Positions 2,575 to 53,759 of a stretch of DNA of 64,000 nucleotides are shown in pieces. Position 1 is the first letter of the stretch; each line of letters opens with the position of its first letter. A program made the translations under genes and the position numbers. Below the pieces are notes generated by a model. It saw nothing but the letters and a program-made list of their open reading frames with translations. It did no database searches and was not told the origin of the DNA. This DNA comes from Dehalococcoidia bacterium (GTDB taxonomy: Bacteria > Chloroflexota > Dehalococcoidia > Bin125), in the NCBI GenBank assembly GCA_965207365.1, contig OZ242281.1:500362-564361 (forward strand), in the 5' to 3' direction.

Positions 2575-2715
2575 GCGCTCGAGACCTCCCCCGTTGGGGG
2601 ATGCGCCCCGAAGGGGCGGAGGGGGCCCGCCGGAGACTCCGTTCAGCGCCCCACGAGGGCCCCCTCAGTCGCTCCGCGACAGCTCCCCCATTGGGGGAGC
2701 TCTTGGATGCCGCTC
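2575..2715. repeat. GC-rich multi-hairpin intergenic repeat (family B)
   Basis: Nested short palindromes ctcccccgttggggga, gcgccccgaaggggcg, gagggggcc..ggccccctc and ctcccccattgggggag. A related unit occurs at 4365-4460. Confidence 0.5.
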
Positions 2716-2740: not shown

Positions 2741-3793
2741 ATGACCACCAAGACCCACACTCTCACCGACGAACTCTCCGCGATCGACTGGTGCTACGAG
2801 CAGGGCTGGACCGACGGCCTTCCGGTCGTCCCGCCTGCCCGTGAGCGAGTTGAACGTTTCCTCATCGCCGCCGGACGCCCTCCTGAGGAAATCGTCGCTC
2901 GGCATCCTGCCACCGGACGCGAATGCAGCGTCCAATCGGCCGCTGTCAATGCGGTCATGGCGGGCTGCCTGCCGCAATACTTCCCAACCGTGCTGGCTGC
3001 GCTCGAGGGTCTGAATGAAGACGCCTACAACTTCCACGGTTCGACCGCCAGCACCGGAGGCTCAGCGCCCGTGGTGATCATCTCCGGAGATATCCGCGAC
3101 GAAATCGGGATGAACGCCAGTGTCAACGTGTTCGGTCCTGGAAACCGCGCCAACGCGACCATCGGACGGGCGATGCGCCTGGTGATCATGAACATCTTCC
3201 AGATGATTCCTGGCATCTCCGATCGCTCGACGACCGGCTGGCCCGGAAAGTACGGCTGTTGCATCGCCGAGAACATCCTCAATAGCCCCTGGGAGCCGCT
3301 GCACGTGTCGCTCGATTTCCCACCCGAGGTCTCGACCGCCACCGTCTTCGCCGCCTCCGGCTTCTACAACGTCGAGAATCACTACACCAGCGACCCCGAA
3401 CTCCTGCTCGACACCTTCGCCGACGCCATGGCCTCGCTGGGCGCACTGACCGATGGACAGTCGCTGGTCGTGATGTCGCCGGAGCACGCGCAGATCGCGG
3501 CCTCGAACGGGATGTCCAAACAGGACGTGCAGGCATACCTCTTCGAGCACGCCAGCCGTGATCCCGAAGAAATGCTGAGCAAGGGCAAATGGCCCGCCGG
3601 GCGCCCAGGCGACGGACTCGCCGAAGGCGAGCGTGGCAATGGCGCGTTTCGCCGAGGTCGCACCCCCGACGACATCCTGCTCGTCGTCGCTGGCGGCGAG
3701 GCTGGCGGACACTCGGCCTTCCTGCCCTCGTGGAGTCGCGGACGCAACTCCATCTATCAGACCAAGGCGATCGGCGTCTGTCTCGATTGCTGA
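2741..3793 (+). CDS. hypothetical protein (about 350 aa), probably co-transcribed with the downstream UGSC selenoprotein
   Basis: The long ORF 2093..3793 has an R-rich, non-protein-like N-terminus. The start was chosen at ATG 2741 (MTTKTHTL...) just after the family-B repeat. A 37-bp gap with GGAGG separates it from the next gene. No family was recognised. Confidence 0.55.
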   Translation: MTTKTHTLTDELSAIDWCYEQGWTDGLPVVPPARERVERFLIAAGRPPEEIVARHPATGRECSVQSAAVNAVMAGCLPQYFPTVLAALEGLNEDAYNFHGSTASTGGSAPVVIISGDIRDEIGMNASVNVFGPGNRANATIGRAMRLVIMNIFQMIPGISDRSTTGWPGKYGCCIAENILNSPWEPLHVSLDFPPEVSTATVFAASGFYNVENHYTSDPELLLDTFADAMASLGALTDGQSLVVMSPEHAQIAASNGMSKQDVQAYLFEHASRDPEEMLSKGKWPAGRPGDGLAEGERGNGAFRRGRTPDDILLVVAGGEAGGHSAFLPSWSRGRNSIYQTKAIGVCLDC

Positions 3794-3829
3794 CCGTCCA
3801 GAACAAACTCGACCAAGACGGAGGCCATC

Positions 3830-4357
3830 ATGTCGCTCGTACTCTTCGACCCCACCGGCGAGCCCACGCCGACCGGCTTCTGCGCCGCGCCCAGGCTGAC
3901 TTCAGTCGAGGGCCTGCGCATCGGCATCTTCTCCAACGGGAAGGTCAACGCCGACAAGCTGCTGCGTTACACCGCCGAGGTCTTCGAGCAACAGGCAAAC
4001 TGCAACGTCGTGATCGACTCCGGCAAGCGCAACGCCAGCCGCATCGCTGAGCCACAGGTGCTGGAGCGAATCGCCAACGATGTCGATTTCCTGATCACCG
4101 CGGTGGGTGATTGAGGCTCCTGCTCAACGTGCAGTGTGCACGACGGCATCACCTTCGAGCAGTACGGCAAGCCCGGCCTGGTCCTCTGCACCCACCCATT
4201 CGACCCCACCGGCCGAATGATCGCCAAAACCCTGGGAATGCCCGACTTCAGGTACGCACTCGTCGATCACCCAATCGGAAGCGCCGGAATCGAAGGCCTC
4301 CAGGCCCGCGCAATGGACGCCTATGACCAGGGCAAGCTAATCCTGCTCGGTGCCTGA
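3830..4357 (+). CDS. UGSC family selenoprotein (in-frame UGA read as selenocysteine)
   Basis: ORFs 3830..4114 and 4136..4357 are in the same frame and separated only by TGA at 4112-4114. Read-through translation gives ...ITAVGD-U-GSCSTCSVHDGITFEQYGK..., the Sec-Gly-Ser-Cys motif that names the family. The second ORF begins with GTG rather than ATG. A hairpin follows the TGA. Confidence 0.7.
4120..4161 (+). promoter_or_regulatory. candidate bacterial SECIS-like stem-loop immediately 3' of the UGA
   Basis: ctgctc (4120-4125) pairs with gagcag (4156-4161), enclosing a perfect 6-bp-stem hairpin cgtgca-gtg-tgcacg (4128-4142). It starts 5 nt after the TGA. Confidence 0.35.
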
Positions 4358-4364
4358 TTCCAAA

Positions 4365-4460
4365 GAGCTCCCCCGTCGGGTGTGCTGTCCAGAAGCGAAC
4401 CTTCCCAAGAGCTCCCCCCTCTGGGGGAGCTGTCCCGTAGGGACTGAGGGGGCTCCCGGC
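4365..4460. repeat. GC-rich hairpin repeat (family B)
   Basis: gagctcccccctctgggggagctg and gggactgagggggctccc hairpins, similar in style to 2575-2715. Together they bracket the two-gene selenoprotein module. Confidence 0.45.
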
Positions 4461-4535
4461 ACGGCGTGTGAGGGAACAACTGCCTTCGTAAGCCTGTTGT
4501 CCACTCCAAACAACCCACTATCCCTTCCCAGTCCC

Positions 4536-4645
4536 CGCTTTACGCGGGGACCTGCTCCCTCCCAGCCCCTTCACATACCAATGAGTCTGCTTTTGGCTGG
4601 GCCCCAGACCGAGCGGGTCCCCGCGTGAAGCGGGGACTGGAATTA
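4536..4645. repeat. inverted pair of family-C hairpin units (ccagtccccgcttcacgcggggacc)
   Basis: ccagtccccgctttacgcggggacctgctccc at 4536 and its reverse complement gggtccccgcgtgaagcggggactgg at 4605-4645. The same unit recurs at 40085/40232 and 57400/63910. Confidence 0.6.
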
Positions 4646-6406: not shown

Positions 6407-8574
6407 GCACAACATTCAAACAGCGCTATCGACGGTCGGTCGGGGATCCCGACCTGAAACCGCGACTACTGACCTTCCAGCGCTCGTGGAGAGAAAGCCG
6501 CGACGCACAGGTCAAACGTCTGGAGCAGCGCACCGAACGCTCCTTTGACGACCTGCGCCAAGAGTTCGCCGCGGTCAAGGACCACACCCTCGAGCATTGG
6601 GACGACCACATCGCCCAGTTCCGAGCCAACGCCGAGGCGGCAGGCGCAACCGTCGTAGAGCTGAACACCGCTGAGGATGCGGTCAACTACATCGCGAGCG
6701 TCTGCAAGTCGCGCGGCATCGAACTGATCGTCAAGAGCAAATCGATGGTCTCCGAGGAGATCGAGCTCAACCACGAGCTCGAACAACGAGGCATCACGGC
6801 CATCGAGACCGACCTCGGCGAATGGCTGTTACAGCTCGCCGAAGAGCGTCCCTCGCACTTGGTCATGCCCGCGATCCATCAGAAGCGACAGTACGTCGCG
6901 GAAATCCTGGGTAAGGAACTCGACCGCGAATTTGACCCCGACGACATCCCGGCGATGGTGGCCAGCGCACGCGACGGCCTGCGCGGACACTACCTCTCTG
7001 CCGGCGCGGGGCTGACCGGCGCCAACGCGCTGGTCGCCGAGACCGGCAGCATCATGGTCGTCACGAACGAAGGCAACATGCGGCTGGCCACGTCGCTGCC
7101 CGATGTCCATTTCGTCACTGCCGGAATCGAAAAGCTGATCCCCTCCTGGGCCGACGCTGAGCGCCAACTCCAGCTCCTGCCGCGCTCTGCCACCGCGCAA
7201 ACGCTGAGCACTTACACCACCTGCATCACCGGAGCCCAGCCTGGCAAAGAGATGCACATCATCCTGCTCAACAACGGCCGCCGCGCCATGCGTGAAACGG
7301 ACAGCATCGGCGACGCCCTGCGCTGTATCCGCTGCGGCGCCTGCGCCAACGTCTGCCCGCCGTACCAGGTCGTCGGCGGACACACCTTCGGCCACATCTA
7401 CACGGGCGCAATCGGGCTGGTCAACACGACGTTCCACCACGGCATCGAGGAAGCGGCCGGTCCTCAGGGACTGTGTGTCTCCTGCGGCGCCTGCGAGACC
7501 GTGTGTCCGGTTGCGATTCCGCTGCCCAAGCAGATTCTGGACATCCGCCACCGCGCTCACGAGGCGGGTCACGCGCCACTCTGGGAGCGCGCCGCCCTAC
7601 GGCTCTGGGCCAAACCGAGACTGTTTCACCACCTGATGGGCCTCGGCGCGCTCGCTTCAGGGACCGCGAGACTGCTCGGCCTCGTTCGTCGAGACCACCT
7701 TCGACTGCCATTGCCCAAGCGCCTGCGCTGGCGTTCCGTACCAGCGCTGCCGCTTCGCAACGGACAGACGTTGGTCAACAGCCGAACGTCGCAGCAGCCA
7801 ATCGCCGTGTCGCCCGCGACCGGACAATCTGTCGATCTGTTCGCGCAATGCCTGGCCGACCGCATGCTTCCCAGCGCCGTTGATGCCACAGCACGCCTGA
7901 TCGAGGCCGGCGGCGCATCAGTCAGAATCCCGCAATCGCAGCACTGCTGCGGTCTGCCGGCCTTCGACGCTGGCGACCGGGAATCCGCACGCAAGATGGC
8001 TCGACAAACCATCGAGGCATTGGAAGGCGGCTCCAACCAGATCGTCACGCCGGCGCCAAGCTGCGTCATCGCCATGCAGGAGCACTGGCCCGAACTCTTC
8101 AGCGACGACCCTGAAATGCAGCAACGAGCATCGGCTGTCAGCCGTCGCGTCCACGACCTCGCCGCTTGGCTCGACGGACCTGGACGACTCCCCGACGGCT
8201 GCCTCGAGCAGGCCGAGCAGGACTCATGGACAGCGCACCGTTTCTGCCAAGCTTCCAACCGGGGCGACTCCTTCGCCCGAATCGACCAACTCGTCGAGCG
8301 CCTGACCAGCGAAGCTGCGTTGCCGCTCAAAGAGCCCGAGGTCTGCTGCGGCTTCGGCGGCCTCACGTCGATGGCCGCGCCGGAAGTCGGGCAAGGAATC
8401 CTCGAGCGGAAGCTGGATTGCGTCGCCGAGAGCGGCTGCGACACCCTGATCACCAACAACCCCGGCTGCGCGCTGCATCTGCGAGCTGGAGCGGTGGCCA
8501 GCGGAGCAACACACGAAACCATGCACTACGCCGAGTTCCTCGCCGGCCGCCTACCCGAGAATCCGCAACGCTGA
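6403..8574 (+). CDS. lutB: LutB-like iron-sulfur protein fused to a C-terminal LutA-like CCG-domain (Fe-S)-binding region
   Basis: 4Fe-4S ferredoxin motifs CIRCGACANVCP and CVSCGACETVCP. The C-terminal half carries two cysteine-rich CCG-type motifs (CCGLPAFDAGD, CCGFGG). 723 aa. Confidence 0.8.
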   Translation: MSTTFKQRYRRSVGDPDLKPRLLTFQRSWRESRDAQVKRLEQRTERSFDDLRQEFAAVKDHTLEHWDDHIAQFRANAEAAGATVVELNTAEDAVNYIASVCKSRGIELIVKSKSMVSEEIELNHELEQRGITAIETDLGEWLLQLAEERPSHLVMPAIHQKRQYVAEILGKELDREFDPDDIPAMVASARDGLRGHYLSAGAGLTGANALVAETGSIMVVTNEGNMRLATSLPDVHFVTAGIEKLIPSWADAERQLQLLPRSATAQTLSTYTTCITGAQPGKEMHIILLNNGRRAMRETDSIGDALRCIRCGACANVCPPYQVVGGHTFGHIYTGAIGLVNTTFHHGIEEAAGPQGLCVSCGACETVCPVAIPLPKQILDIRHRAHEAGHAPLWERAALRLWAKPRLFHHLMGLGALASGTARLLGLVRRDHLRLPLPKRLRWRSVPALPLRNGQTLVNSRTSQQPIAVSPATGQSVDLFAQCLADRMLPSAVDATARLIEAGGASVRIPQSQHCCGLPAFDAGDRESARKMARQTIEALEGGSNQIVTPAPSCVIAMQEHWPELFSDDPEMQQRASAVSRRVHDLAAWLDGPGRLPDGCLEQAEQDSWTAHRFCQASNRGDSFARIDQLVERLTSEAALPLKEPEVCCGFGGLTSMAAPEVGQGILERKLDCVAESGCDTLITNNPGCALHLRAGAVASGATHETMHYAEFLAGRLPENPQR

Positions 8575-8583
8575 GGTAACTCA

Positions 8584-9498
8584 ATGCCCACCGTCATCGA
8601 TGTCCACGTCCATCTCTGCCGGACGCCCGAGCAAGAGGCGCTCGTCTTTCCGCGTCGCGGTCTGCCGCTGGATTGGCGCTGGGCCAACGGCGACGCCTGC
8701 GGCGAGTACATGACGCGCAACGATGTCGAGGCGATCGTCGGCCTCAACTACATGGTCGTGCCAGAAATGTTCGAGCAGCAACGAGAGCGCCGCCCTGAGG
8801 CTCCGGCCGAAGACTTGCTGGCAATGCTGCACGAGCGCGTGCGCAGCTTCAACACCTGGACGCTCGAACGGCAGGCCGAGGACCCGAGGATTCGCACCTT
8901 TCTCTGCTGCGACATCGGCACCTGGGTCGATACGGACCTGCTTATGGAAGAGCTGGAACGCGGCGTCGCGATGGGCGCACGAGGCGTGAAGATGCACCCT
9001 GGGCTCGGACGCTACTGCCCCGCCGACGAGCGCATGATGCCGCTCTACGCCAGGCTGGAAGAGCTCGGCCTGCCCATCCTCAGCGACACCGGCGCGCTGC
9101 GAGGCGGTCCTGGCGACGACATCTTCGGCATGCCCGACCATTTCATCCCCGTCTTCGAGAGATTTCCCAGGCTGCAGTTCATCATGGCCCACATGCCCGG
9201 CGCATACTGGGATCAGAGAATCGCCATCGCCAAGCGATTCCCGCAAGTCCTCTTTGACACCGCCGGTGGCTTCAACGACGGACACTTCACCTGTCGAGAC
9301 GGCCGCCAAGCCTGCGCGCTCGAAGACGCAGCCCGACTCATACGAACACTCGGTACAGAACGAGTGCTGTTCGGCTCAGATGCACCAGGAGCCGATCAAC
9401 AACCGCAGATACTACAACTGCTAAGAAGCGGGTTACTCGATAGCGAACTCGATCAGATCTTAGTAGAGAACGCTCGCCCTGTTCTCGGACTATCGTGA
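8584..9498 (+). CDS. amidohydrolase-2 family metal-dependent hydrolase (TIM barrel)
   Basis: N-terminal VIDVHVHL metal-binding motif and a C-terminal FGSDAP-like motif. 304 aa. Confidence 0.65.
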   Translation: MPTVIDVHVHLCRTPEQEALVFPRRGLPLDWRWANGDACGEYMTRNDVEAIVGLNYMVVPEMFEQQRERRPEAPAEDLLAMLHERVRSFNTWTLERQAEDPRIRTFLCCDIGTWVDTDLLMEELERGVAMGARGVKMHPGLGRYCPADERMMPLYARLEELGLPILSDTGALRGGPGDDIFGMPDHFIPVFERFPRLQFIMAHMPGAYWDQRIAIAKRFPQVLFDTAGGFNDGHFTCRDGRQACALEDAARLIRTLGTERVLFGSDAPGADQQPQILQLLRSGLLDSELDQILVENARPVLGLS

Positions 9499-9636
9499 TC
9501 CGGCCAGCAGTTTGACAGCCATTGCCAAACTGGGCACAATGGACGGGACGGGAGGCGAGCGCCGCTGACTTCTATCATTGCGGCGGCCCGGCCGAAAGGC
9601 CCGCCTCCTGTCCTTCCGTCTTTCTGGTAGGTCCCG

Positions 9637-11573: not shown

Positions 11574-12007
11574 CGACAGAATCGCAATCTGCGGAACTCA
11601 GCTATGAAAAGCCGCTGCCACCGGCCCTTGAACTGACCAAACCGTTCTGGGACGGCTGCCGCGAAGGCATTCTGCAAATCCAGTTCTGCAACATTTGCGA
11701 TCTCCCCTGGTTCCCGCCGGCCGAAGCCTGCCCCCGATGCCTACAGGACGACTGGGAATGGCGGCCGATCTCGGGGCATGGAACAGTCTGGTCCTGGATC
11801 CGCATGTGGCAGAAATACTTCCCCGGCTGGGAACCCGACGAGTACCCCTACACGGTCGCCCTGATCAAACTCGAAGAGGGTCCCTACATGTACTCAACTC
11901 TCGTCGACATCGAGGACCAAGACGTCAGCTGCGACCTCAACGTCGAAGTAGATTTCCGCAAAGTCAGCGATGAAATCACGCTGCCGGTGTTTCGACCGTC
12001 GCGCTGA
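11570..12007 (+). CDS. Zn-ribbon/OB-fold DUF35 protein (partner of the thiolase-like protein)
   Basis: 145 aa with CxxC...CxxC (CNICD...CPRC) followed by an OB-fold-like region. It shows the classical pairing with an SCP-x thiolase. Confidence 0.8.
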   Translation: MTTESQSAELSYEKPLPPALELTKPFWDGCREGILQIQFCNICDLPWFPPAEACPRCLQDDWEWRPISGHGTVWSWIRMWQKYFPGWEPDEYPYTVALIKLEEGPYMYSTLVDIEDQDVSCDLNVEVDFRKVSDEITLPVFRPSR

Positions 12008-12027
12008 ATGCCGAACACAAGACTTCC

Positions 12028-12558
12028 ATGAGCAGAGGAGCCGAAGCCCACGTCCGAACGGATTCTGAACGCTCTGTCGACGCTCGTGACTTCCTACTTG
12101 ATGAGGCGCACCATGCAATAGATGCTCAGATGCGCTTTCTTTCGTCGCAAGATGTGCGCGTTGTTGCAACGTTCACCATCAGCCTGTTGCTCGTCTCTGC
12201 AACGGGGATCGTTGGCGATATTCGCCTATCGGGTGGGCTGGTTTCAGTCCTCACATTGTCGGCGTTGGCGGTCTCAGTCGTAGTCTGGCTTTGCTGTTGG
12301 GCGTCCTATTACACGAGGAAAGTTGCGTTTAGCGTCGAAATCGACATCCTGGCCCGCAGCTACCGAGATGCCAGCACCGACGAAATGCAGGACGCCTCGT
12401 TGGAGGCCCTTGTCGCGGGATTTGAACAGAACAGCGAAACAATCCCTTCGCAACGAAAGTGGCTGCAATACGCGATAGTCGGACTGGGTATCCAATTGGC
12501 GCTTCTTGCGGCGACAACCATTGCCGGTGCACCAACTGGAGCGGCCTTGGGGTCCTGA
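12028..12558 (+). CDS. hypothetical 3-TM membrane protein (low GC), paralogous to 15227..15743
   Basis: ORF with an N-terminal amphipathic helix, two TM helices, a charged helix and a third TM. GC is lower than in neighbours. Confidence 0.4.
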   Translation: MSRGAEAHVRTDSERSVDARDFLLDEAHHAIDAQMRFLSSQDVRVVATFTISLLLVSATGIVGDIRLSGGLVSVLTLSALAVSVVVWLCCWASYYTRKVAFSVEIDILARSYRDASTDEMQDASLEALVAGFEQNSETIPSQRKWLQYAIVGLGIQLALLAATTIAGAPTGAALGS

Positions 12559-12734
12559 CTGCTAGAGACCTCGCTTGTGAAGCTTTAGCGGCAATGGCCG
12601 ACCCGTCCGTTGCTCGCCAGTGGACTTTGAATCATCCTTGTCCGTAACCGGAGCGGGAACTTTGGCATCTGTCGCTTGCTGTGTCGATTCCATAACGCCA
12701 TCTCGATTCGTTGCCACGCTCTCACCTCCCTATC

Positions 12735-13919
12735 CTATCGACCTTGGTCGGCGCCTGACGAATGCAGTTCAGCAAGCACCTCGTCCTGATGCTCTCCGAG
12801 TCCTGGGGCTGGACGCATGTTCGTTGAGACCGGTGTGCCCTCGAAATCCCAGGGCGGTGCGACCTGTTGCAGCATTGAACCGTCTCCCTGCTCCACATCG
12901 ATGATGGCTCCCACGGCTGCAACCTGCGGATCCCGACTGAGCCGTTCGTAGTCGTGCATCGGGAAGGCCCAGCCGCCGTGACGCTCGATGATTTCGATCA
13001 CTCGTTCCGCCTCAAAGCTGGCGAACCCCCGCTCCCAGAGCGGTTTCAGCTCTGCGGCGTATCGTCCTGCGCCTCCGGCTCCGTCGGTCCGGAGCCGATC
13101 GAAGTCCGGACGTGCACGTGCCCACTCCATACCGAGCTCGTCGATCAACGACTCGAACGCGTCTCCGCGGATGCGTGCCAACGAGAAGTAAATCGGCAAG
13201 TCACGACACTGATAGCCGTGGTCGGGTGGTTTCACGTACGAGTCGAGATGGAATCCCCACCACTCATCCGGGTTCGAGAGCGCCACCCACAGCGTCGACC
13301 GCATCGCCAACAGACTGCCGAAGAGTGAGACCTCAATCCGTTGGCCGCCAATCGGCGCGTACGGATCTGAATCGTCGCGAGCGTACAATCCGGCGCAGAT
13401 CGCCTGAATTGCGTAGTTCGCCGCATACATCGAACCGATATCGCCGCCATGGCGAACCGGTTCCTCACCAATCGTCCCCAAAGATGCCGTCGCTTCACTG
13501 GCCAGTTGCGCGGCAAGTTCCGACATCGGACTGTCGCTCCACGAACCGTGAGGACCGAAGCCCGACATCGCGCAATAGACGAGCCCAGGAGCGTCCAGCG
13601 ACTCCCAGCTCAACTCGCTGGACAAGCCGACCTTATCGACGATTGCGACATCCGCGCCGGCCAACAACTGCCGAGCAGTCTCCAGGTCGCCCTCCGACGA
13701 CCAGTCGAGCATGATGCCGCGCTTGTTACGATTCAGCGCCTGGAACAGCGCCGAAGCTCCGCTTTCCGTCTGTGGCGACCAGCCCCGCGCACGGTCTCCG
13801 GTGGGCTGCTCAATCTTGATCACATCTGCGCCACCGTCTCCGAGCGACATCGCCGTGTACGGCCCGGCTACGCCTTCCGCGATCTCGACGACGCGATATC
13901 CATCAAGCGGACCAGCCAC
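12735..13919 (-). CDS. CoA-transferase family III (CaiB/BaiF)
   Basis: 394 aa. Starts MAGPLDGYRVVEIAEGVAGPYTAMSLGDGGADVIKIEQP, the typical CaiB N-terminus. Confidence 0.85.
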   Translation of the reverse strand: MAGPLDGYRVVEIAEGVAGPYTAMSLGDGGADVIKIEQPTGDRARGWSPQTESGASALFQALNRNKRGIMLDWSSEGDLETARQLLAGADVAIVDKVGLSSELSWESLDAPGLVYCAMSGFGPHGSWSDSPMSELAAQLASEATASLGTIGEEPVRHGGDIGSMYAANYAIQAICAGLYARDDSDPYAPIGGQRIEVSLFGSLLAMRSTLWVALSNPDEWWGFHLDSYVKPPDHGYQCRDLPIYFSLARIRGDAFESLIDELGMEWARARPDFDRLRTDGAGGAGRYAAELKPLWERGFASFEAERVIEIIERHGGWAFPMHDYERLSRDPQVAAVGAIIDVEQGDGSMLQQVAPPWDFEGTPVSTNMRPAPGLGEHQDEVLAELHSSGADQGR

Positions 13920-23846: not shown

Positions 23847-25727
23847 CTACGAGATGATCTCGAGCTCGCGCAGCTTGGACTCGCCCACGACGCCGTTGTC
23901 CCAACCGCGAGCGTCGTAGTACTGCTCTTTCATCTGGTCGAGTTCGCAGACGTGACCTTCGGCCGGTCCGGTCGCCGGCTCGTTGAGGAAGCGATCGGGC
24001 AGCGAGTCATCGCTGCCGTCAAATCCTGCGAGGTTGTTGTAGTAGCGCTCGAGGTTGTAGATGCGCTCGCCAGCGACCATCACGTCTTCCTCGGACATGG
24101 GGAGGCCGACGACCGTCTCGTACAACGCGGCGTACTCGGGCGCGCCAACCGCGAAGGCTGAGAACTTGCACAGGTCGAGCGAGTCTGAGAATGCATGCAG
24201 GTCCTGGAAGATCTTCAGCAGCGGACCCTTGCCGTCCCATTCGAGCGGGTCGGTCTTGACCGGAATACCGAGCAGCTCGGAGGCGGGCGTGTAGCCACGC
24301 AGGTGGCAGGCGCCGCGGTTCGAGGTCGCGTAGCCGAGCCCCTCGCCCTTGATCCCGCGCGGGTCGTAAGCCGGTACGGCCTGTCCCTTAACGGTCATCG
24401 AAATCTCCGGGTGACCCCAGGAGGCTGCGGCCTTGGCCGGGCCTTGGCCCAGCGCCTGGCCGATCGACCCAGAGGCGTGCGCAATGTCTTCTGCAGCCTG
24501 GACCATACCTGCGCCGTCGCCCCAGTCGAGCGGCGTGTCGACGTAGCCCCGTTCCGAGGCTTCCATGTACATCGAGATGGCGTTGCCAATTTCAATCGCG
24601 TCCATGCCGTAGTCGTTGCATTGGTCGATGATCTTGGCGATGACAGCCGGATCGTCGTTGCCGCAGTTCGCGCCCAGCGACCAGGCCGGCTCGTACTCAA
24701 ACGACTCCATCTTCAGGCCGGCGTGAACGCCTTCGGTGATCTCAACTTCCTTCTTGCAAGCCACCGGACAGGCGTGACAGGTCGGTTCGGCGGTCAGAAA
24801 GTCGGAGCGCATCGTCTCGCCCGAGACCGCGTCTGCCGCTTCAGGGGTCGTCTGCGTCATCTGCGAGTTCTTCGTGCCCAGCCCACCGATCGAGTTGACG
24901 GCGTTCATCAGCACGTTAGTCCCGAAGGCCGAGAGCGCACCAGAGCCGTCCTTGAGCGATCCGTCATCGTTGACCGAGGACGGCGCCGTCACCGGCGACT
25001 CCATGATCAGCTTCAGGTGAGCGCCCTGCGCCGCGCGGAACTTCTGCCGCGCTTCGCCCTGTTCTGGTCGCCAACGACCGTCACGCGTGCCTCGCACGAC
25101 CACACACTTGAGGTTCTTCGACCCAGCCACCGCGCCCGTGCCGCCGCGACCGGCTGCGCGGTCGTCCTCGTTGAGGATCGAGGCGAACAGCACGCCGTTC
25201 TCGCCGGCCTGGCCGATCGACATGACCGAGACATCGGTCTTGTTGCCGCTGTCTGAACCGAAGTGCTTGACGGTGTCGTGGATACCCATCCCCCAGAGGT
25301 GAGAGGCATCCTTGATCTCGACTTCGCCGTTCTCGACTTCGAGATAGACGGGCGCCGCCGCTTTGCCGGTAATCAGAATGGCGTCGAAGCCGGCCCAGCG
25401 GAGTCGAGCCGCTGACCAACCGCCCATGTGCGAGTCGGTCACGGTTCCTGTCAATGGCGACTTGGTCACGAACGCGAGGCGTCCCGACATCGTCACCTCA
25501 GAACCGGTCATCGGCCCGTTGACCAGGGCCAGCATGTTGTCCGGAGACATCGCGGCGGTATTCGGTCCGTTGTCGAGCAGGTACTTCACGCCCAGCCCGC
25601 GAGCGCCGATGTACTTTCGCGCGTCGTCTTCATTGACGCCCTCGTAAGTGACTGTGCGGTCGCTCAGATTGATCCGCGCCACGCGGTCAGCAAATCCCCC
25701 AAGTGCCATGATCGTTCCCTTCATCAA
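23847..25727 (-). CDS. aldehyde:ferredoxin oxidoreductase (tungsten-containing AOR family)
   Basis: 626 aa with the AOR N-terminal domain and catalytic domain blocks (EPTCHACPVACKK Fe-S cysteine region, GLGYATSNRGACHLRG). Confidence 0.85.
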   Translation of the reverse strand: MMKGTIMALGGFADRVARINLSDRTVTYEGVNEDDARKYIGARGLGVKYLLDNGPNTAAMSPDNMLALVNGPMTGSEVTMSGRLAFVTKSPLTGTVTDSHMGGWSAARLRWAGFDAILITGKAAAPVYLEVENGEVEIKDASHLWGMGIHDTVKHFGSDSGNKTDVSVMSIGQAGENGVLFASILNEDDRAAGRGGTGAVAGSKNLKCVVVRGTRDGRWRPEQGEARQKFRAAQGAHLKLIMESPVTAPSSVNDDGSLKDGSGALSAFGTNVLMNAVNSIGGLGTKNSQMTQTTPEAADAVSGETMRSDFLTAEPTCHACPVACKKEVEITEGVHAGLKMESFEYEPAWSLGANCGNDDPAVIAKIIDQCNDYGMDAIEIGNAISMYMEASERGYVDTPLDWGDGAGMVQAAEDIAHASGSIGQALGQGPAKAAASWGHPEISMTVKGQAVPAYDPRGIKGEGLGYATSNRGACHLRGYTPASELLGIPVKTDPLEWDGKGPLLKIFQDLHAFSDSLDLCKFSAFAVGAPEYAALYETVVGLPMSEEDVMVAGERIYNLERYYNNLAGFDGSDDSLPDRFLNEPATGPAEGHVCELDQMKEQYYDARGWDNGVVGESKLRELEIIS

Positions 25728-28366: not shown

Positions 28367-29185
28367 ATGACCATGTCCACTTCTGCCATCTCCATCGAAC
28401 CGTTGACTCCCTCGATCGGCGCAACCGTCCACGGCGTCGACCTGACCCAGCCGATCGACCAGGAGACATTCCAGTTCATCCACGACGCCTGGATGGAACA
28501 CCTGGTCCTCTTCTTCCGCGACCAGCCGATGTCGCCTGAGGACCACCTGAGTTTCGGACGCATGTTTGGCGACCTGCATATCCACCCGGCTGCGCCGTAC
28601 GAGCATGGCAACCCTGAGCTGATGAAGATCCACACCGACAAGGACTCCTTCCGCAACAACGGTGAGCGATGGCATTCCGACGTCTCAGCCGATGAAGAGC
28701 CGCCGATGGCCTCGATCCTGCACATCAGCAGCATTCCCACACAGGGCGGCGACACCTGTTGGTCGAACATGTACGCCGCCTGGGATGGTCTCTCGCCGCA
28801 GATGCAAGCGCTGCTCGAACCGCTGAGCGCGCTGCACGCAGCCGATTACTCGGGCCAGTACGGCGACCACAAGCCGCAGCGTGAGTCTCCACGCGCAGAG
28901 CACCCAATCGCCCGCACGCATCCCGTGACCGGTCGCAAGGCGCTCTTTGTCAACTCGAGTTTCACCCGTCGGATCATCGGCCTGCCACTCGAGGAGAGCA
29001 ACGCCATCCTCAACTTCTTGTTCGAGCACGTCAAGAACGTCAACTTCCAATGCCGCTTCAAGTGGGACGCCCATTCGGTCGCCCTCTGGGACAACCGCTG
29101 CACCCAACACATGGCCATCTGGGACTACTACCCCGAGTCGAGAAGCGGCATCCGGGTCACGGTCAAAGGCGACAAGCCGTTCTAG
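28367..29185 (+). CDS. TauD/TfdA-family alpha-ketoglutarate-dependent dioxygenase
   Basis: WHSDVS (His-x-Asp) iron motif and a distal His (HSVALWDNRCTQH). The start was chosen at ATG 28367 within ORF 28229..29185. Confidence 0.8.
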   Translation: MTMSTSAISIEPLTPSIGATVHGVDLTQPIDQETFQFIHDAWMEHLVLFFRDQPMSPEDHLSFGRMFGDLHIHPAAPYEHGNPELMKIHTDKDSFRNNGERWHSDVSADEEPPMASILHISSIPTQGGDTCWSNMYAAWDGLSPQMQALLEPLSALHAADYSGQYGDHKPQRESPRAEHPIARTHPVTGRKALFVNSSFTRRIIGLPLEESNAILNFLFEHVKNVNFQCRFKWDAHSVALWDNRCTQHMAIWDYYPESRSGIRVTVKGDKPF

Positions 29186-29247
29186 GCACCAACCAACCTC
29201 TCGCAGAACAACCAAACTCCAACTCACAGATTAGGAGTTCCATACAC

Positions 29248-31755
29248 GTGGCCACTGCATCTACAGCAGACAACACCATCATCGACTTCATCTCAGGCCA
29301 ACCAGTCCGAGCAACTCCCGAAGAGCTTCATGCAGTCCAAGTTTTCTCCAGATCCCTTTTTCACGATTACAAGTATCCCAAGGAGAACATTCACACACGG
29401 CCACAGTGGCGAGTAAAGGCTCGCCCCTCTGATACCAAGAAGGAATATCCAGTTGACATTGCAGTCTTCTCTGATCACAATCACACTGACGACACTTCAC
29501 TCATTCTCGTTGAATGCAAGAAACCCAACCGGCATGATGGACGTAGCCAGCTCGAAGACTACTTACGCTTCTCTCGCGCACGACTTGGAGTCTGGTTCAA
29601 CGGCGAAGAAAAACTCTTCCTCAAGAAGACGGAGCACGACGGTGCCGTTTACTTTGAGGAGATTCCAAACATCCCCCGCTACGGCGAACGCCTCGAAGAC
29701 ATCGGCCTCTACCGCCGCATGGACCTTGAACCCACTCACAATCTGAAAAGCGTCTTCCGCACGATAAGAAACTACCTTGCGGCGAATGCTAAAGGCATCA
29801 CACGCGATGAGGTCTTCGCCCAACAAATCATAAATCTCATCTTCTGCAAGATATACGGCGAACGCTTCACACGACCTACCGACATGGTTCGCTTCAGGGC
29901 GGGGATTGATGAACCTCCACATTCGGTCCGGCAACGAATCCAAGCCCTCTTTGTTGAGGTAAAGAACCAATACAACGACGTGCTGACCCAAGAAGACGAC
30001 CTTCTGCTAGACGACACCTCCCTTGCCTATGCTGTAGGCGAGATGCACCTCTTCTCGCTGATCGATTCCAAACGGGACGCAATCGCGGAAGCCTTCGAGG
30101 TCTTCATCGGGCCGTCGCTGAAGGGTGGGCAGGGCCAATTCTTCACCCCGAGAAATGTCGTCAAACTCCTTGTCGACATGATCGACGTTTCACCCACAGA
30201 CAAAATCATCGATCCGGCTTGCGGTTCAGGTGGATTTCTCGTTGAATCGCTACGCGAGGTATGGGCAAAAATAGATCAACAGGGAGACGACCTCAACTGG
30301 CCAGAACAGGAGATTTTTTCTGAAAGACAACAAGCCGCCATCAAGAACTTTCGAGGGATAGACAAGGACGATTTCCTCGCCAAAGTTGCAAAAGCCTACA
30401 TGGCCATCATCGGTGACGGGCGAGGCGGCGTGTTTTGTGAAAACAGTCTGGAGAGCCACGAAGACTGGCACGCCACTACACGAGAGCAAGTTCAACTAGG
30501 CACGTTCGACGTGGTATTGACCAATCCACCCTACGGAAAGAAACTCAAAATCGACGACCAGTCCACTCTTGGCCCATATGCGTTGGGTCACAAGTGGACC
30601 AAGACAAAAGAGACCGGTGCCTACGAAAAGAAGGACAAACTCCGGGATGCACAGTCTCCCCAGATTCTCTTCATCGAGAGGTGCCTCGCCCTCCTAAAGG
30701 AAGGAGGGCGACTTGGCATAATCGCTCCTGAATCCATGATGTGCAATCCCTCTCACAGATACATCATTCAATATCTCAAATCGGTCGCACGTATCGTCGC
30801 CGTCGTATCTTTCCCTGAAGAGTTGTTTCAGCCGTTCACACATGCTAAGACTTGTGGCGTTATAGTAGAGAAAACACCTTCTGCTGTAGACGAACCCCAT
30901 TCAATCTTTATGGCCATTGCCAAATGGTGCGGGCATGATTCCCGTGGCCACGCGATTCCGCACGACGACATTCCGCTCATTGCTGCGAGGTTTGAGGATT
31001 ACAAGTCAGGCGAGATTCTCGATTATGACCATTTCGGTTTCCTGATTACAGATGACCAGATTGTCGATGACATCTATCTGCCCAAATACTACAATCCTGA
31101 GATGGACGCTAAGATTGATCAGCTCAGGATGACTCACGATGTCCTTACGCTGGGCGAACTAGTGGATGATGGCGTAATCTCGATTGGTACCGGGCATGAA
31201 GTAGGCAAACTCGCGTATGGCACTGGTCCGATCCCGTTTATACGAACTTCGGATATTGCGAACTGGGAGATTAAACTGGACCCCAAGCAAGCAGTAAGTG
31301 TTGACATTTATGAAGGCCTCAAGGATCGCCAAGACGTTCAGGCAGGGGACATTCTTATGGTGCGAGATGGCACCTATCTTGTAGGAACATGCGCGATGAT
31401 TCAGGAAGCTGACACTGGCATTGTTTATCAAAGTCACATTTACAAGATTCGCTCAGAAGATCATCAAAAGATGAATCCGAGTCTGCTCTTGGCAGCGCTG
31501 TCTAGCCCCATAGTCAGGGAACAGATCTACGCAAAGAGGTTTACTCAAGACATTATCGATACGCTCGGAGGCCGGATATCCGAGCTGCAACTCCCAATTC
31601 CGAAGGATAAAGCAACGCGTGACCAAGTCATTGACAATGTGACACGAGCCTTAGAGCTGAAGGCGAGCGCTCGCTCTCTTGCGCGAACTGCCGCACTCAC
31701 GATTGCGCCGCATGACGGTGGTCTCGACCCTGACTTCCTGACTCTCTCAGGCTGA
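29248..31755 (+). CDS. MmeI-like type IIG/IIL restriction-modification enzyme (fused PD-ExK nuclease, N6-adenine methyltransferase and target-recognition domain)
   Basis: N-terminal VDIAVF...ILVECKKPN (PD-ExK, HsdR_N-like). Central IIDPACGSGGFLV (SAM motif I) and NPPYG (motif IV). The C-terminus has an HsdS-like TRD. GTG start at 29248 with AGGAG at -10. GC is markedly lower than in the surroundings. Confidence 0.7.
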   Translation: MATASTADNTIIDFISGQPVRATPEELHAVQVFSRSLFHDYKYPKENIHTRPQWRVKARPSDTKKEYPVDIAVFSDHNHTDDTSLILVECKKPNRHDGRSQLEDYLRFSRARLGVWFNGEEKLFLKKTEHDGAVYFEEIPNIPRYGERLEDIGLYRRMDLEPTHNLKSVFRTIRNYLAANAKGITRDEVFAQQIINLIFCKIYGERFTRPTDMVRFRAGIDEPPHSVRQRIQALFVEVKNQYNDVLTQEDDLLLDDTSLAYAVGEMHLFSLIDSKRDAIAEAFEVFIGPSLKGGQGQFFTPRNVVKLLVDMIDVSPTDKIIDPACGSGGFLVESLREVWAKIDQQGDDLNWPEQEIFSERQQAAIKNFRGIDKDDFLAKVAKAYMAIIGDGRGGVFCENSLESHEDWHATTREQVQLGTFDVVLTNPPYGKKLKIDDQSTLGPYALGHKWTKTKETGAYEKKDKLRDAQSPQILFIERCLALLKEGGRLGIIAPESMMCNPSHRYIIQYLKSVARIVAVVSFPEELFQPFTHAKTCGVIVEKTPSAVDEPHSIFMAIAKWCGHDSRGHAIPHDDIPLIAARFEDYKSGEILDYDHFGFLITDDQIVDDIYLPKYYNPEMDAKIDQLRMTHDVLTLGELVDDGVISIGTGHEVGKLAYGTGPIPFIRTSDIANWEIKLDPKQAVSVDIYEGLKDRQDVQAGDILMVRDGTYLVGTCAMIQEADTGIVYQSHIYKIRSEDHQKMNPSLLLAALSSPIVREQIYAKRFTQDIIDTLGGRISELQLPIPKDKATRDQVIDNVTRALELKASARSLARTAALTIAPHDGGLDPDFLTLSG

Positions 31756-37442: not shown

Positions 37443-37592
37443 CCAATCCCCTCTCCCCCCCTTGCGGGGGGAGATGCCGAAGGCAGAGGGGGGTTCCCTG
37501 CCTGTGGCCCTATCTGGTCATCACCCGCCGACCCCCCTCTGTCACTCCGTGACATCTCCCCCCGCAAGGGGGGGAGAGGGGATTCGGGAGCC
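37443..37592. repeat. MITE-like palindromic repeat (family A, core only)
   Basis: ctctcccccccttgcggggggagatgccgaaggcagagggggg...cccctctgtcactccgtgacatctccccccgcaagggggggagaggg. Confidence 0.7.
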
Positions 37593-45581: not shown

Positions 45582-46676
45582 ATGGACTCAGAGCGATCTG
45601 ACATCGCCTCCGGCACATCAGCGCCGCCCTTGTTCCTGACGGGGGCGGCTGGCCATGTCGGGGCCAATCTGGTGCGCCGCTTGCTCGATGACGGCGCTCG
45701 GGTCCGGGTGCTGCTGAGACACGAGGACAACAACGAAGCCATAGATGGGCTCGACGTCGAGCGCGTCTATGGCGACATCCGCGATCTAGAAGCGACGCGG
45801 CAAGCGCTCGCCGGATGTCATGGCGTCTTCCACACGGCCGCGCTCGTATCCACAATCGACGGCGACGATACGCATCGGCGCGATGTCTTCGAGAGCAACG
45901 TGATCGGCACTCGTAACGTGCTCCAGGCAGCGCAAGAGTTCGACGCTGGACGAGTAGTAGTCACCGGCTCGTTTAGCGCAGTTGGCTACGACCTCGACGA
46001 TCCGTCAGCTCCGTCCAAGGAGTCGATGCCGTTCTTTCCCATGGAACGCACGATGCCATACGAGCGCAGCAAGGCGATGGTCGAAACCGAGTGCTGGCAT
46101 GCGGCGGCAAACGGTCAAGATGTTGTGATTGCCACGTCCTGTGCGGTCGTCGGCGGCAACGACTTCATGCCCTCGCGCATGGGTCGGACGCTGGTCGACT
46201 TCGCCAACGGCAAGCTGCACGCCTATGTCGATGGTGGGTTCGAGTTCGTCGCGGCGGAAGACATCGTGCAGGGACATATGCTCAGCATGGAGCGCGGGCG
46301 AACAGGGCAGAAGTACATCTTCAGCTCCGAGTACCAGACGATCTCCAACATGTTGGATCTGTTTCAGGAGGTTTCGGGCATACGGCGACCGCGGCGGCAG
46401 ATACCCGTCAGCCTGATGTTGCCGATGTCAGTCGTGGTGAGCAACGTCCTCAGCCGGCTGCGCCCAAACGACCCACAGCGATTCACCCCTGGCGCGATCC
46501 GACTCCTGCAGAAGTGCCGTCACGCCGACACCAGCAAGGCGAAAGAGGAATTGGGCTTTCAGCCGACAACGATGCGCGCCGCGGTTCGCGACGCGTACGC
46601 GTTCCACTATCAGCGCAAGGCCATCACCAATTCACGGGCGAAGCGCCCCGAATCGATCGTCCCGGAGGATGAGTAG
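45582..46676 (+). CDS. NAD(P)-dependent 3beta-hydroxysteroid dehydrogenase / epimerase-dehydratase family (SdmB/ERG26-like C-4 demethylation component)
   Basis: Extended-SDR GAAGHVG Rossmann motif and YERSK catalytic motif. Adjacent to a Rieske oxygenase, as in the described bacterial SdmA/SdmB pair. Confidence 0.75.
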   Translation: MDSERSDIASGTSAPPLFLTGAAGHVGANLVRRLLDDGARVRVLLRHEDNNEAIDGLDVERVYGDIRDLEATRQALAGCHGVFHTAALVSTIDGDDTHRRDVFESNVIGTRNVLQAAQEFDAGRVVVTGSFSAVGYDLDDPSAPSKESMPFFPMERTMPYERSKAMVETECWHAAANGQDVVIATSCAVVGGNDFMPSRMGRTLVDFANGKLHAYVDGGFEFVAAEDIVQGHMLSMERGRTGQKYIFSSEYQTISNMLDLFQEVSGIRRPRRQIPVSLMLPMSVVVSNVLSRLRPNDPQRFTPGAIRLLQKCRHADTSKAKEELGFQPTTMRAAVRDAYAFHYQRKAITNSRAKRPESIVPEDE

Positions 46677-46710
46677 TCATGACCAGTCCAGTGACCGCCG
46701 CAACTTCTGA

Positions 46711-48922: not shown

Positions 48923-48954
48923 AGTCGGCGCTTCAGGGTCTGTTGAGGTCAGAG

Positions 48955-53729: not shown

Positions 53730-53759
53730 CCCTGTCCGCAATGTTCCTCGCCGCGTGGC

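What the first reader, a model, noticed from the sequence alone, without database searches (positions are those of the whole stretch)
2741..4357. UGSC-family selenoprotein with in-frame TGA and downstream SECIS-like hairpin, split into two ORFs by the ORF caller
ORFs 3830..4114 and 4136..4357 share one frame and are separated by a single TGA (4112-4114). Translating through gives ...DFLITAVGD-U-GSCSTCSVHDGITFEQYGKPGLV..., where the Sec-Gly-Ser-Cys tetrapeptide is the defining motif of the UGSC (seleno)protein family. The downstream ORF has no ATG and begins with GTG mid-sentence, consistent with read-through rather than a new gene.

A stem-loop (ctgctc...cgtgca-gtg-tgcacg...gagcag, 4120-4161) begins 5 nt after the UGA, where a bacterial SECIS would be expected. 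The upstream 350-aa protein of unknown family (2741-3793) is separated by only 37 bp and may be a functional partner. The two-gene module is bracketed by family-B hairpin repeats (2575-2715 and 4365-4460).

No selA/selB/selD/tRNA-Sec is present in this window, so the Sec machinery must be encoded elsewhere. A Cys-containing (non-Sec) reading would require a different codon.
Basis: partly seen in the sequence, partly recalled or inferred. Interest (0 to 1): 0.7.

Follow-up and report, generated by a model that had tools for sequence, protein, structure and literature searches.

The report
UGSC selenoprotein gene with conserved partner
This is a genuine but ordinary member of the known UGSC family of selenocysteine-containing proteins, which gene callers cut in two at its in-frame UGA codon. 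The more useful result is that it almost always sits beside one unannotated 350-residue partner gene.

Summary
ORFs 3830-4114 and 4136-4357 are one 175-codon gene interrupted only by TGA 4112-4114. The read-through product matches Pfam UGSC (PF24696, E 1.8e-44), and the U aligns with Cys of CGSC homologues.

In 74 of 80 genomes from about ten phyla, a UGSC gene lies beside a homologue of the upstream 350-aa gene. All 77 sites carry TGA. Codons after the TGA are under strong purifying selection (dN/dS about 0.1). TGA is also the commonest ordinary stop in the window.

A 6-bp hairpin (4128-4133/4137-4142, loop GUG) pairs in 99% of 75 sequences, with compensatory changes at three pairs. Its loop G23-U24 sits at the same distance from the UGA as in the E. 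coli fdhF SECIS.

No selA/B/D or tRNA-Sec lies in the window, so the machinery remains untested.

The family has been known since 2007, with function unknown. The added value is the partner:
- It has more than 7,500 homologues, no Pfam family and no solved structural relative.
- It is linked to UGSC in either gene order.
- It is naturally fused to UGSC in one locus.

This suggests a two-subunit selenoenzyme.

The parts
2741..3793 (+). Partner gene: 350-aa protein of an unannotated, very widespread family. Ends in TGA.
3820..3824 (+). Shine-Dalgarno-like GGAGG, 5 nt before the ATG of the UGSC gene.
   Evidence: Read directly from the sequence. No terminator-like site on the + strand between the two genes.
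3830..4357 (+). UGSC-family selenoprotein gene: 175 codons including Sec, with stop TGA at 4355-4357.
   Evidence: Pfam PF24696, E 1.8e-44. NCBIfam NF041046 119.9 bits against a cut-off of 125. All 32 read-through homologues hit PF24696. dN/dS 0.08-0.11 downstream of the TGA.
4112..4114 (+). In-frame UGA read as selenocysteine (U95 of the U-G-S-C motif).
   Evidence: Aligns with Cys of CGSC homologues. TGA at the same codon in 77 of 77 sites from 74 other genomes.
4128..4142 (+). SECIS hairpin: stem 4128-4133 / 4137-4142, apical loop G4134 U4135 G4136. The stem starts 13 nt after the UGA.
   Evidence: 99.1% of cells paired in 75 distinct sequences. Double compensatory changes at 3 of 6 pairs. 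It is the only helix that RNAalifold predicts de novo. G23 and U24 are at least 90% conserved and third-codon-position G18 is invariant. The hairpin decays in Cys homologues.
4121..4148 (+). Possible lineage-specific lower extension of the SECIS stem (4121-4123 with 4146-4148, 4125 with 4145). Weak in this window.
   Evidence: Columns 10-12/35-37 and 14-16/32-34 are paired in about 40-95% of sequences, depending on the pair. In the window, A15 and A16 face A32 and C33 as an internal loop.
2681..2701 (.). Perfect GC-rich palindrome upstream of the module, inside a larger imperfect inverted repeat (2582-2703).
   Evidence: Role unknown.
4410..4431 (.). Second copy of the same palindrome, downstream of the module and before the convergent acyl-CoA dehydrogenase gene.
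   Evidence: No T-run follows; role unknown.

Best explanation
The region 2741-4357 is a two-gene operon.

**The second gene (3830-4357).** It encodes a 175-residue selenoprotein of the known UGSC family. During translation, UGA 4112-4114 is read as selenocysteine rather than stop. The proposed cause is that the mRNA just downstream folds into a short hairpin (4128-4142) that presents G4134-U4135 in its loop. This is the kind of element to which the Sec-specific elongation factor SelB binds to deliver Sec-tRNA(Sec).

The product is a small alpha/beta protein of five beta-alpha units. The U95-G-S-C98 motif sits at the junction between strand 3 and helix 3, a position typical of redox-active selenol/thiol pairs.

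**The first gene (2741-3793).** It encodes a 350-residue protein of an unannotated family, which is the dedicated partner of UGSC. The two most likely form one enzyme. The large subunit would bind the substrate through its near-universal C76 and C174 and conserved loops. The UGSC subunit would supply the selenenylsulfide/selenol redox centre.

**Shown here**
- Family membership.
- Conservation of the UGA and of the downstream frame.
- Covariation of the hairpin.
- Purifying selection after the UGA.
- Gene linkage and a natural fusion.

**Inferred**
- SelB binding.
- The existence of selABCD elsewhere in this genome.
- The physical complex, the redox chemistry and the substrate (unknown).
For: **Identity**
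- PF24696 at 152.3 bits.
- U aligned with Cys in P0002 and in many CGSC proteins, some of which NCBI names 'UGSC family (seleno)protein'.

**Recoding**
- TGA at the U codon in 77 of 77 partner-linked UGSC sites from Chloroflexota, Gamma-, Alpha- and Betaproteobacteria, Acidobacteriota, Methylomirabilota, Binatia and Actinomycetes.
- 79-90 open codons follow the TGA in nearly all loci. Two have about 105 codons, one is a 437-codon fusion, and three run off their contig.
- dN/dS after the TGA is 0.11, 0.10 and 0.08, against 0.19, 0.16 and 0.47 before it.
- TGA is the ordinary stop of 18 of 32 Pfam-supported genes in the window, so the code is not reassigned.
- In an exhaustive search of 1.84 billion representatives, most of the 150 best hits are 92-106-aa fragments ending exactly at the U position.

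**SECIS**
- The hairpin in columns 17-22/26-31 pairs in 99.1% of cells. Compensatory changes occur at 19:29, 20:28 and 21:27 (CG to GC in 11 sequences). These come with amino-acid changes: Cys to Trp with Val to Leu, and Cys to Gly with His to Leu.
- The loop Ser codon is AGU in at least 90% of sequences, although these genomes are GC-rich.
- Four Cys-type genes keep only 5, 4, 3 and 1 of the 6 pairs, and three of them use AGC.
- The E. coli fdhF SECIS sequence was verified. It has G23-U24 and the 3' arm U26-G27-C28-A29-C30 at the same distances from the UGA.
- A tRNA-Sec gene lies about 900 bp from the module in Dehalococcoidia locus L051.

**Partner**
- Adjacent in 74 of 80 genomes, in either order and on either strand.
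- Also adjacent to Cys-type UGSC in Actinobacteria and Streptomyces.
- Fused to UGSC in L074.
- No third conserved neighbour.
Against: - No selA, selB, selD or tRNA-Sec lies in the 64-kb window, and the rest of the genome could not be searched.
- The hairpin is not unusually stable (z = -0.35).
- The hairpin lacks the bulged U of the E. coli element.
- No Rfam family matches.
- The NCBIfam equivalog score is 5 bits below its cut-off.
- Part of the hairpin conservation could come from the conserved peptide S-C-S-V-H-D, and only four Cys-type genes were available as a control.
- The complex and the redox role rest on gene linkage, one fusion and a structure model of a 41%-identical Cys homologue, not on any experiment.
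- The partner's fold gave no functional lead.
Confidence: 0.9

Rival explanations
1. The TGA is a true stop. The locus would then make a 94-residue N-terminal protein and, separately, a 73-residue protein started at GTG 4136 (a split gene).
For: Mechanical ORF calling gives exactly these two ORFs, and public gene callers do the same in relatives. No Sec machinery is seen in the window.
Against: - The seven codons between the TGA and GTG 4136 encode the most conserved residues of the family: G-S-C is invariant in 32 sequences.
- The GTG is an internal Val codon that changes to Leu codons (CTG/TTG) in many relatives.
- No ribosome-binding site precedes it.
- Cys homologues are single chains with Cys at the TGA position.
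- The structure model places the U at the junction of strand 3 and helix 3 of one compact domain.
Confidence: 0.03
2. The UGA is read through, but not as Sec. A near-cognate tRNA would insert Cys or Trp, either in a genome that has lost the Sec pathway or alongside Sec insertion.
For: The Sec machinery is unverified for this genome. Cys works at this position in natural homologues.
Against: The SECIS hairpin is maintained by compensatory changes, and by a rare AGU codon, in this lineage and its closest relatives (L001, L003, L083). That would be pointless without SelB. A lineage without Sec would be expected to fix TGC/TGT, as the Actinobacteria did.
Confidence: 0.04
3. The gene is a pseudogene, or the TGA is a sequencing or assembly error.
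For: None beyond the presence of a stop codon.
Against: The same TGA is found in 77 independent assemblies. The frame stays intact with dN/dS about 0.1 downstream.
Confidence: 0.01
4. UGSC and the 350-aa protein are merely neighbours, for example co-regulated members of a pathway, and not subunits of one enzyme.
For: No interaction was tested. One genome has an unrelated AAA_14/DUF4143 gene inserted between them (L084). In six of 80 loci no UGSC lies within 8 kb, and one of those (L038) is a 2-kb contig.
Against: - Linkage survives changes of order and strand across about ten phyla, while every other neighbour changes.
- Linkage also holds for the Cys forms.
- A natural single-chain fusion exists.
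- Zhang et al. 2008 reported a UGSC fusion with an unnamed conserved domain (PMC2398784).
Confidence: 0.25

Closest known systems
UGSC-containing selenoproteins (Pfam PF24696; NCBIfam NF041046 'UGSC family (seleno)protein'; reference ABI76733.1 of Hyphomonas neptunium). One of the most abundant selenoprotein families in the Global Ocean Sampling data.
   Same: Same domain over residues 5-167, same U-G-S-C motif, and same size of about 175 aa. Sec forms far outnumber Cys forms: 255 to 21 in GOS (PMC2398784), and 77 to 0 among the partner-linked genes here. Function is still listed as unknown in a 2026 review (PMC13188914).
   Different: Nothing essential differs. This copy comes from an uncultured Chloroflexota lineage; the nearest named relative is MAG SB0664_bin_15, whose partner protein is 85% identical. 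It scores 5 bits below the NCBIfam equivalog cut-off.
SECIS element of E. coli fdhF (formate dehydrogenase H).
   Same: A short hairpin lies immediately 3' of the UGA inside the coding sequence. Loop G23-U24 and the 3' arm U26-G27-C28-A29-C30 occupy identical positions counted from the U of UGA (fdhF sequence verified; alignment A5). That G23 and U24 are SelB contacts is from my knowledge of the Böck and Engelberg-Kulka laboratories' work and was not tested here.
   Different: The loop has 3 nt (GUN) instead of 4 (GGUC). There is no bulged U17 in the upper stem. The lower stem is weak and lineage-specific. No Rfam model covers it.
Two-component selenoenzymes in which a small or separate Sec subunit serves a substrate-binding subunit, such as glycine reductase GrdA/GrdB/GrdE and D-proline reductase PrdA/PrdB.
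   Same: This is a resemblance in working principle only. A UxxC or CxxU selenol/thiol centre sits on one polypeptide, genetically coupled to a larger catalytic polypeptide.
   Different: There is no sequence relationship. None of 32 UGSC proteins or 60 partner proteins gives even a weak Pfam hit to GRDB, GRDA or Gly_reductase at E <= 10. The carriers here are largely lineages thought to be aerobic heterotrophs (my own knowledge), not amino-acid-fermenting anaerobes.
Class I (iron-sulfur) fumarate hydratase, the weakest of leads for the partner protein.
   Different: TM-score is only about 0.23, identity 6-11%, and only about 125 residues superpose. This is below any level that would justify homology.

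Membership tests
UGSC family (PF24696 / NF041046) | Significant match to the family profile over the whole domain | tested here: met
   Pfam PF24696: E 1.8e-44, 152.3 bits against a gathering score of 25, residues 5-167 on profile positions 2-165 of 172.
UGSC family (PF24696 / NF041046) | Score above the NCBIfam equivalog cut-off used for automatic naming | tested here: inconclusive
   119.9 bits against a cut-off of 125, with U written as C. This is a curated naming threshold, not a property of the protein. It means automatic annotation might not name this copy.
UGSC family (PF24696 / NF041046) | Sec or Cys followed by Gly-Ser-Cys at the conserved position after strand 3 | tested here: met
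   D94-U95-G96-S97-C98. C/U95, G96, S97 and C98 are invariant in 32 aligned members.
Bacterial selenoprotein genes (Sec decoding of UGA) | In-frame UGA aligned with Cys in homologues, with a conserved coding frame downstream | tested here: met
   dN/dS is about 0.1 downstream.
Bacterial selenoprotein genes (Sec decoding of UGA) | SECIS hairpin just 3' of the UGA, with G/U in the apical loop | tested here: met
   Hairpin 4128-4142. The loop G lies 19 nt after the UGA. 99.1% of cells are paired, with compensatory changes at three pairs.
Bacterial selenoprotein genes (Sec decoding of UGA) | selA, selB, selC (tRNA-Sec) and selD present in the genome | not testable with these tools
   Absent from the window, and the rest of the genome is not available. 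Indirect support: a tRNA-Sec gene lies next to the module in relative L051.
Bacterial selenoprotein genes (Sec decoding of UGA) | Selenium actually incorporated at the UGA position | not testable with these tools
   Needs 75Se labelling or mass spectrometry.
Thioredoxin-fold oxidoreductases (the fold suggested for UGSC in PMC2398784) | Thioredoxin fold with the redox motif at the start of helix 1 | tested here: not met
Glycine/proline reductase selenoprotein B (GRDB, PF07355) | Profile match to GRDB | tested here: not met
   No hit at E <= 10 in any of 32 UGSC proteins, subject to HMMER's filters, which drop most matches above about E 0.1.
E. coli-type SECIS (fdhF) | Loop G23-U24 at a fixed distance from the UGA, plus a bulged U17 | tested here: inconclusive
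   G23-U24 is met. The bulged U is not present in the 6-bp stem. Requirements of SelB from Chloroflexota are unknown.

The most novel reading that the evidence does not exclude
UGSC is not a free-standing thioredoxin-like protein. It would be the selenium-bearing small subunit of a widespread two-subunit enzyme. The large subunit is the 350-aa partner, which has more than 7,500 homologues, no Pfam or NCBIfam model, no solved structural relative, and near-universal C76 and C174. It would represent an undescribed enzyme family, which could explain why one of the most abundant aquatic selenoprotein families has had no assigned function since 2007.
Probability: 0.55. Interest if true: 0.55.

Novelty: new member of a known kind. 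Interest (0 to 1): 0.27.

Why it matters
**For annotation.** The two ORFs should be merged into one selenoprotein gene with a translation exception at 4112-4114. Public gene calls for relatives make the same split.

**For biology.** The gene itself adds only one more member, from uncultured Chloroflexota, to a family known since 2007.

The useful by-product is a concrete handle on that family's unknown function:
- Near-obligate linkage, and occasional fusion, with a single large unannotated protein family points to a two-subunit enzyme.
- Cultured carriers exist in which it could be tested. These include Hyphomonas neptunium among Sec forms (PMC1976440) and Streptomyces among Cys forms. MAGs assigned to Enhydrobacter aerosaccus and Caenispirillum bisanense also carry Sec forms.

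The SECIS alignment of 75 sequences also shows clearly how an RNA structure shapes codon and even amino-acid choice inside a coding region.

Tried and rejected
- **Rfam.** Nothing at gathering score over the whole window. At E <= 10 on 4080-4200, only chance hits.
- **Thermodynamic significance of the hairpin.** z = -0.35, so it is uninformative.
Paired in 30% of cells; rejected as a conserved feature.
- **Exhaustive HMMER search with the read-through protein.** The substitute alignment gave a profile of the N-terminal 97 positions only.
- **Word-index search with the read-through protein.** It found only two hits, because Sec forms are truncated in protein databases. A 32-sequence alignment was needed.
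- **Window-wide scan for other in-frame TGAs as further selenoprotein candidates.** 149 candidates in a 62% GC sequence; too noisy to use.
- **A third conserved neighbour gene across 80 loci.** None found. The clustering was also polluted by antisense shadow ORFs.
- **Pfam on 60 partner homologues at E <= 10.** No recurrent family. Sequence and profile searches of the PDB were empty.
- **The AlphaFold-database library.** Not available.
- **Checking that the partner is the 'Unknown_1' domain of Zhang et al. 2008.** Figure S1A is an image and the sequence supplement is truncated. This stays an inference.
- **Exact look-up of the window's partner protein in public assemblies.** Not on record.
- **Genes next to the tRNA-Sec of L051.** No selA or selB there; only a class V aminotransferase, an arginase-family gene and an ABC transporter.
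Full report
**1. The observation**

The sequence is as described. ORF 3830-4114 (ATG, 94 codons) and ORF 4136-4357 (GTG, 73 codons) share a frame, and a single TGA at 4112-4114 separates them. Translating through gives ...NDVDFLITAVGD-U-GSCSTCSVHDGITFEQYGKPGLV....

A GGAGG lies 5 nt before the ATG. The quoted stem-loop bases are all present.

**2. Family**

With U written as C, the 175-residue product matches Pfam PF24696 'UGSC family' at E 1.8e-44 (152 bits, cut-off 25, residues 5-167). It matches NCBIfam NF041046 'UGSC family (seleno)protein' at 119.9 bits, just under the equivalog cut-off of 125.

The U aligns with the first Cys of CGSC in a full-length homologue, P0002, and in dozens more. 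NCBI names some of these 'UGSC family (seleno)protein'.

The family is well known:
- It is one of the most abundant selenoprotein families in the Global Ocean Sampling data, with 255 Sec and 21 Cys forms (PMC2398784).
- It is still listed among selenoproteins of uncharacterised function in 2022 and 2026 reviews.

**3. Is the TGA really decoded?**

I used the upstream protein, not UGSC itself, to fetch 80 loci from species-representative genomes. They come from Chloroflexota/Dehalococcoidia, Pseudomonadales and other Gammaproteobacteria, Alpha- and Betaproteobacteria, Acidobacteriota, Methylomirabilota/Rokubacteria, Binatia, Poribacteria and Actinomycetes.

- In 74 of the 80 loci a UGSC homologue lies within the fetched flank.
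- All 77 UGSC sites in those loci have TGA at the U codon.
- Only the metagenomic Cys homologue L002 has TGC.
- The frame stays open for 79-90 codons after the TGA in nearly all loci. Two have about 105 codons, one is a 437-codon fusion, and three run off their contig.

Against three relatives, dN/dS is lower after the TGA than before it:

| Relative | dN/dS after the TGA | dN/dS before the TGA |
|---|---|---|
| L001 | 0.11 | 0.19 |
| L083 | 0.10 | 0.16 |
| L013 | 0.08 | 0.47 |

The downstream part is therefore translated and constrained.

TGA is also the ordinary stop of 18 of 32 Pfam-supported genes in the window, including the partner gene. The genetic code is therefore not reassigned.

An exhaustive HMMER search of 1.84 billion representatives gave 1,583 hits. 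Most of the best 150 are 92-106-residue fragments ending exactly at the U position, which is how gene callers truncate Sec forms. Public gene calls for relatives show the same 94 + 72-76 aa split.

**4. The SECIS**

On its own the 71-nt fold is unremarkable (z = -0.35), and Rfam has no matching family. The comparative evidence is strong.

I made a gapless alignment of 75 distinct sequences, with column 1 at the U of UGA. RNAalifold predicts a single helix in it, columns 17-22 with 26-31. That is 4128-4133 with 4137-4142 in the window.

- The helix is paired in 99.1% of cells.
- Changes on both sides occur at 19:29 (UA to GU, GC or AU), 20:28 (GC to CG) and 21:27 (CG to GC, 11 sequences).
- The covariation score exceeds all 500 shuffles and every slid control.
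- The compensatory changes alter the protein: TGC/CAC (Cys...His) becomes GGC/CTC (Gly...Leu), and TGC/GTG (Cys...Val) becomes TGG/CTC (Trp...Leu). The RNA therefore constrains the peptide.
- Synonymous sites are frozen. G18, a third codon position, is invariant in 75 of 75 sequences.
- The loop Ser codon is AGU in at least 90% of sequences, although these are GC-rich genomes.

Four Cys-type genes keep only 5, 4, 3 and 1 of the six pairs, and three of them use AGC for that Ser. This is a small control, but it points the expected way.

The loop G23-U24 and the 3' arm U26-G27-C28-A29-C30 lie at exactly the same distance from the UGA as in the E. coli fdhF SECIS. I verified my recalled fdhF sequence against 5,420 E. 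coli genomes. That G23 and U24 contact SelB is from my own knowledge of the literature.

The element differs from fdhF in having a 3-nt loop and no bulged U.

An alternative lower extension (columns 10-16 with 32-37) is present in some lineages but weak in this window.

**5. Sec machinery**

The window has no tRNA gene. None of 30 ORFs of 236 aa or more scanned with Pfam is SelA, SelB or SelD.

One relative, Dehalococcoidia UBA1123 (L051), carries a tRNA-Sec gene about 900 bp from its UGSC gene.

**6. The partner gene**

The 350-aa protein has more than 7,500 homologues, 57-63% identical even between phyla (for example Pseudomonadales and Alphaproteobacteria), and none has a Pfam domain.

- It has no NCBIfam match.
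- It has no PDB relative by sequence or profile.
- Class I fumarate hydratase recurs at the top of both structure searches, but at a level too weak to interpret.

Linkage to UGSC is close to obligate:
- It holds in 74 of 80 genomes, with UGSC downstream, upstream or on the opposite strand.
- It also holds for Cys-type UGSC in Actinobacteria, Streptomyces and others.
- Every other neighbour differs between lineages.
- In L074 one open frame, read through its Sec codon, encodes UGSC followed by a partner domain. This is probably the 'UGSC/Unknown_1 fusion' of Zhang et al. 2008, but I could not verify that.

Across 87 relatives, C76 (86 of 87) and C174 (77 of 86) are the near-universal cysteines. 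The C-terminal C347-x-x-C350 is confined to the window's own subgroup.

**7. The UGSC fold**

The tool would not accept the read-through sequence, so I modelled a 41%-identical Cys homologue, P0273. The model has pLDDT 91.8 and five beta-alpha units, with the U/C at the junction of strand 3 and helix 3.

**8. How it most likely works**

- **Shown:** one gene, a conserved UGA, a covarying SECIS hairpin, a constrained downstream half, and a dedicated neighbour.
- **Inferred:** SelB with Sec-tRNA(Sec) binds the hairpin and inserts Sec at residue 95. U95 and C98 form a selenenylsulfide/selenol-thiol redox pair at a helix N-terminus. The small protein works as the redox subunit of an enzyme whose large subunit is the partner. 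The substrate is unknown.

The surroundings are catabolic: an MFS transporter, acyl-CoA dehydrogenase, LUD/Fe-S proteins, an amidohydrolase and CoA-transferases. They are not conserved, so they give no specific lead.

**9. Rivals**

- A split gene with an independent start at GTG 4136 is contradicted by the invariant G-S-C between the TGA and that GTG, by the GTG being a variable internal codon, and by single-chain Cys homologues.
- Non-Sec read-through is contradicted by active maintenance of the SECIS in the closest relatives.
- A pseudogene or sequencing error is excluded.
- The partner may be only a pathway neighbour rather than a subunit. I give that about one chance in four.

**10. Verdict**

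The feature is a new member of a long-known selenoprotein family, so interest in the finding as stated is low. The side result has moderate interest, because it makes the function of a very abundant selenoprotein family testable: an unannotated partner family with no solved structural relative, tightly coupled to UGSC.

Noticed in passing
window 45582-54791: This looks like a bacterial sterol-biosynthesis cluster. It holds a 3beta-HSD/epimerase-like gene, a Rieske oxygenase, an ERG4/ERG24 sterol reductase and a cytochrome P450. It also holds a 1,152-aa fusion of squalene epoxidase with an oxidosqualene/squalene-hopene cyclase, and a methyltransferase with a Sterol_MT_C domain. In a Chloroflexota genome whose nearest relatives are labelled only as Chloroflexi/Chloroflexota MAGs, this may bear on bacterial sources of methylated sterol biomarkers.
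   Followed up: partly
window 2575-2715, 4365-4460, 4531-4551, 4617-4637; also near 37550, 44286 and 63727: GC-rich palindromic intergenic repeats are present. The perfect palindrome AGCTCCCCC..GGGGGAGCT occurs only twice in the window, and the two copies flank the partner-UGSC operon. A second hairpin, GTCCCCGC..GCGGGGAC, occurs twice downstream. A related CCCCC/GGGGG-rich unit recurs elsewhere (translated ...SVTPHLPPQGGERG...). Their role is unknown; they may be REP-like elements or terminators.
   Followed up: partly
L074 3301-4894: This is a natural fusion. One open frame, read through its Sec codon, encodes a UGSC domain followed by a full partner domain. The same locus also has a separate partner gene and UGSC gene at 8001-9517.
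   Followed up: partly
L051 10467-10564 (-): A tRNA-Sec gene (anticodon TCA) lies about 900 bp downstream of the UGSC gene of Dehalococcoidia bacterium UBA1123. A class V aminotransferase (cysteine desulfurase / selenocysteine lyase type) lies nearby at 11793-12986.
   Followed up: partly
proteins P0280 and P0294 (alignment A7): Some 'full-length' database UGSC proteins have Trp (A-W-GSC) or Gly (D-G-GSC) at the U position. They are most likely Sec genes translated by pipelines using genetic code 4 or 25, not true substitutions.
   Followed up: no
L087 1-3537: An actinobacterial contig carries two divergently oriented partner + Cys-type UGSC modules on either side of an IclR-family regulator gene. 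This may be a lead to the inducer or substrate.
   Followed up: no
L084 8276-9433: In one genome an AAA_14/DUF4143 ATPase gene is inserted between the partner and the UGSC gene.
   Followed up: no
window 29050-31755: A 901-aa protein combines N6 DNA methylase, Eco57I-type and HSDR_N domains, a type IIG-like restriction-modification fusion. Its GC3 (0.56) is much lower than that of its neighbours (about 0.8), which suggests recent horizontal acquisition.
   Followed up: no
window 23847-25727 (-), 61582-63549 (+): The first is a tungsten-type aldehyde:ferredoxin oxidoreductase (AFOR_N/AFOR_C, E 5e-125) in a genome otherwise rich in oxygenase-type enzymes (luciferase-like monooxygenases, Rieske, P450, TauD). 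The second is a 655-aa ORF with good coding statistics but no Pfam match.
   Followed up: no
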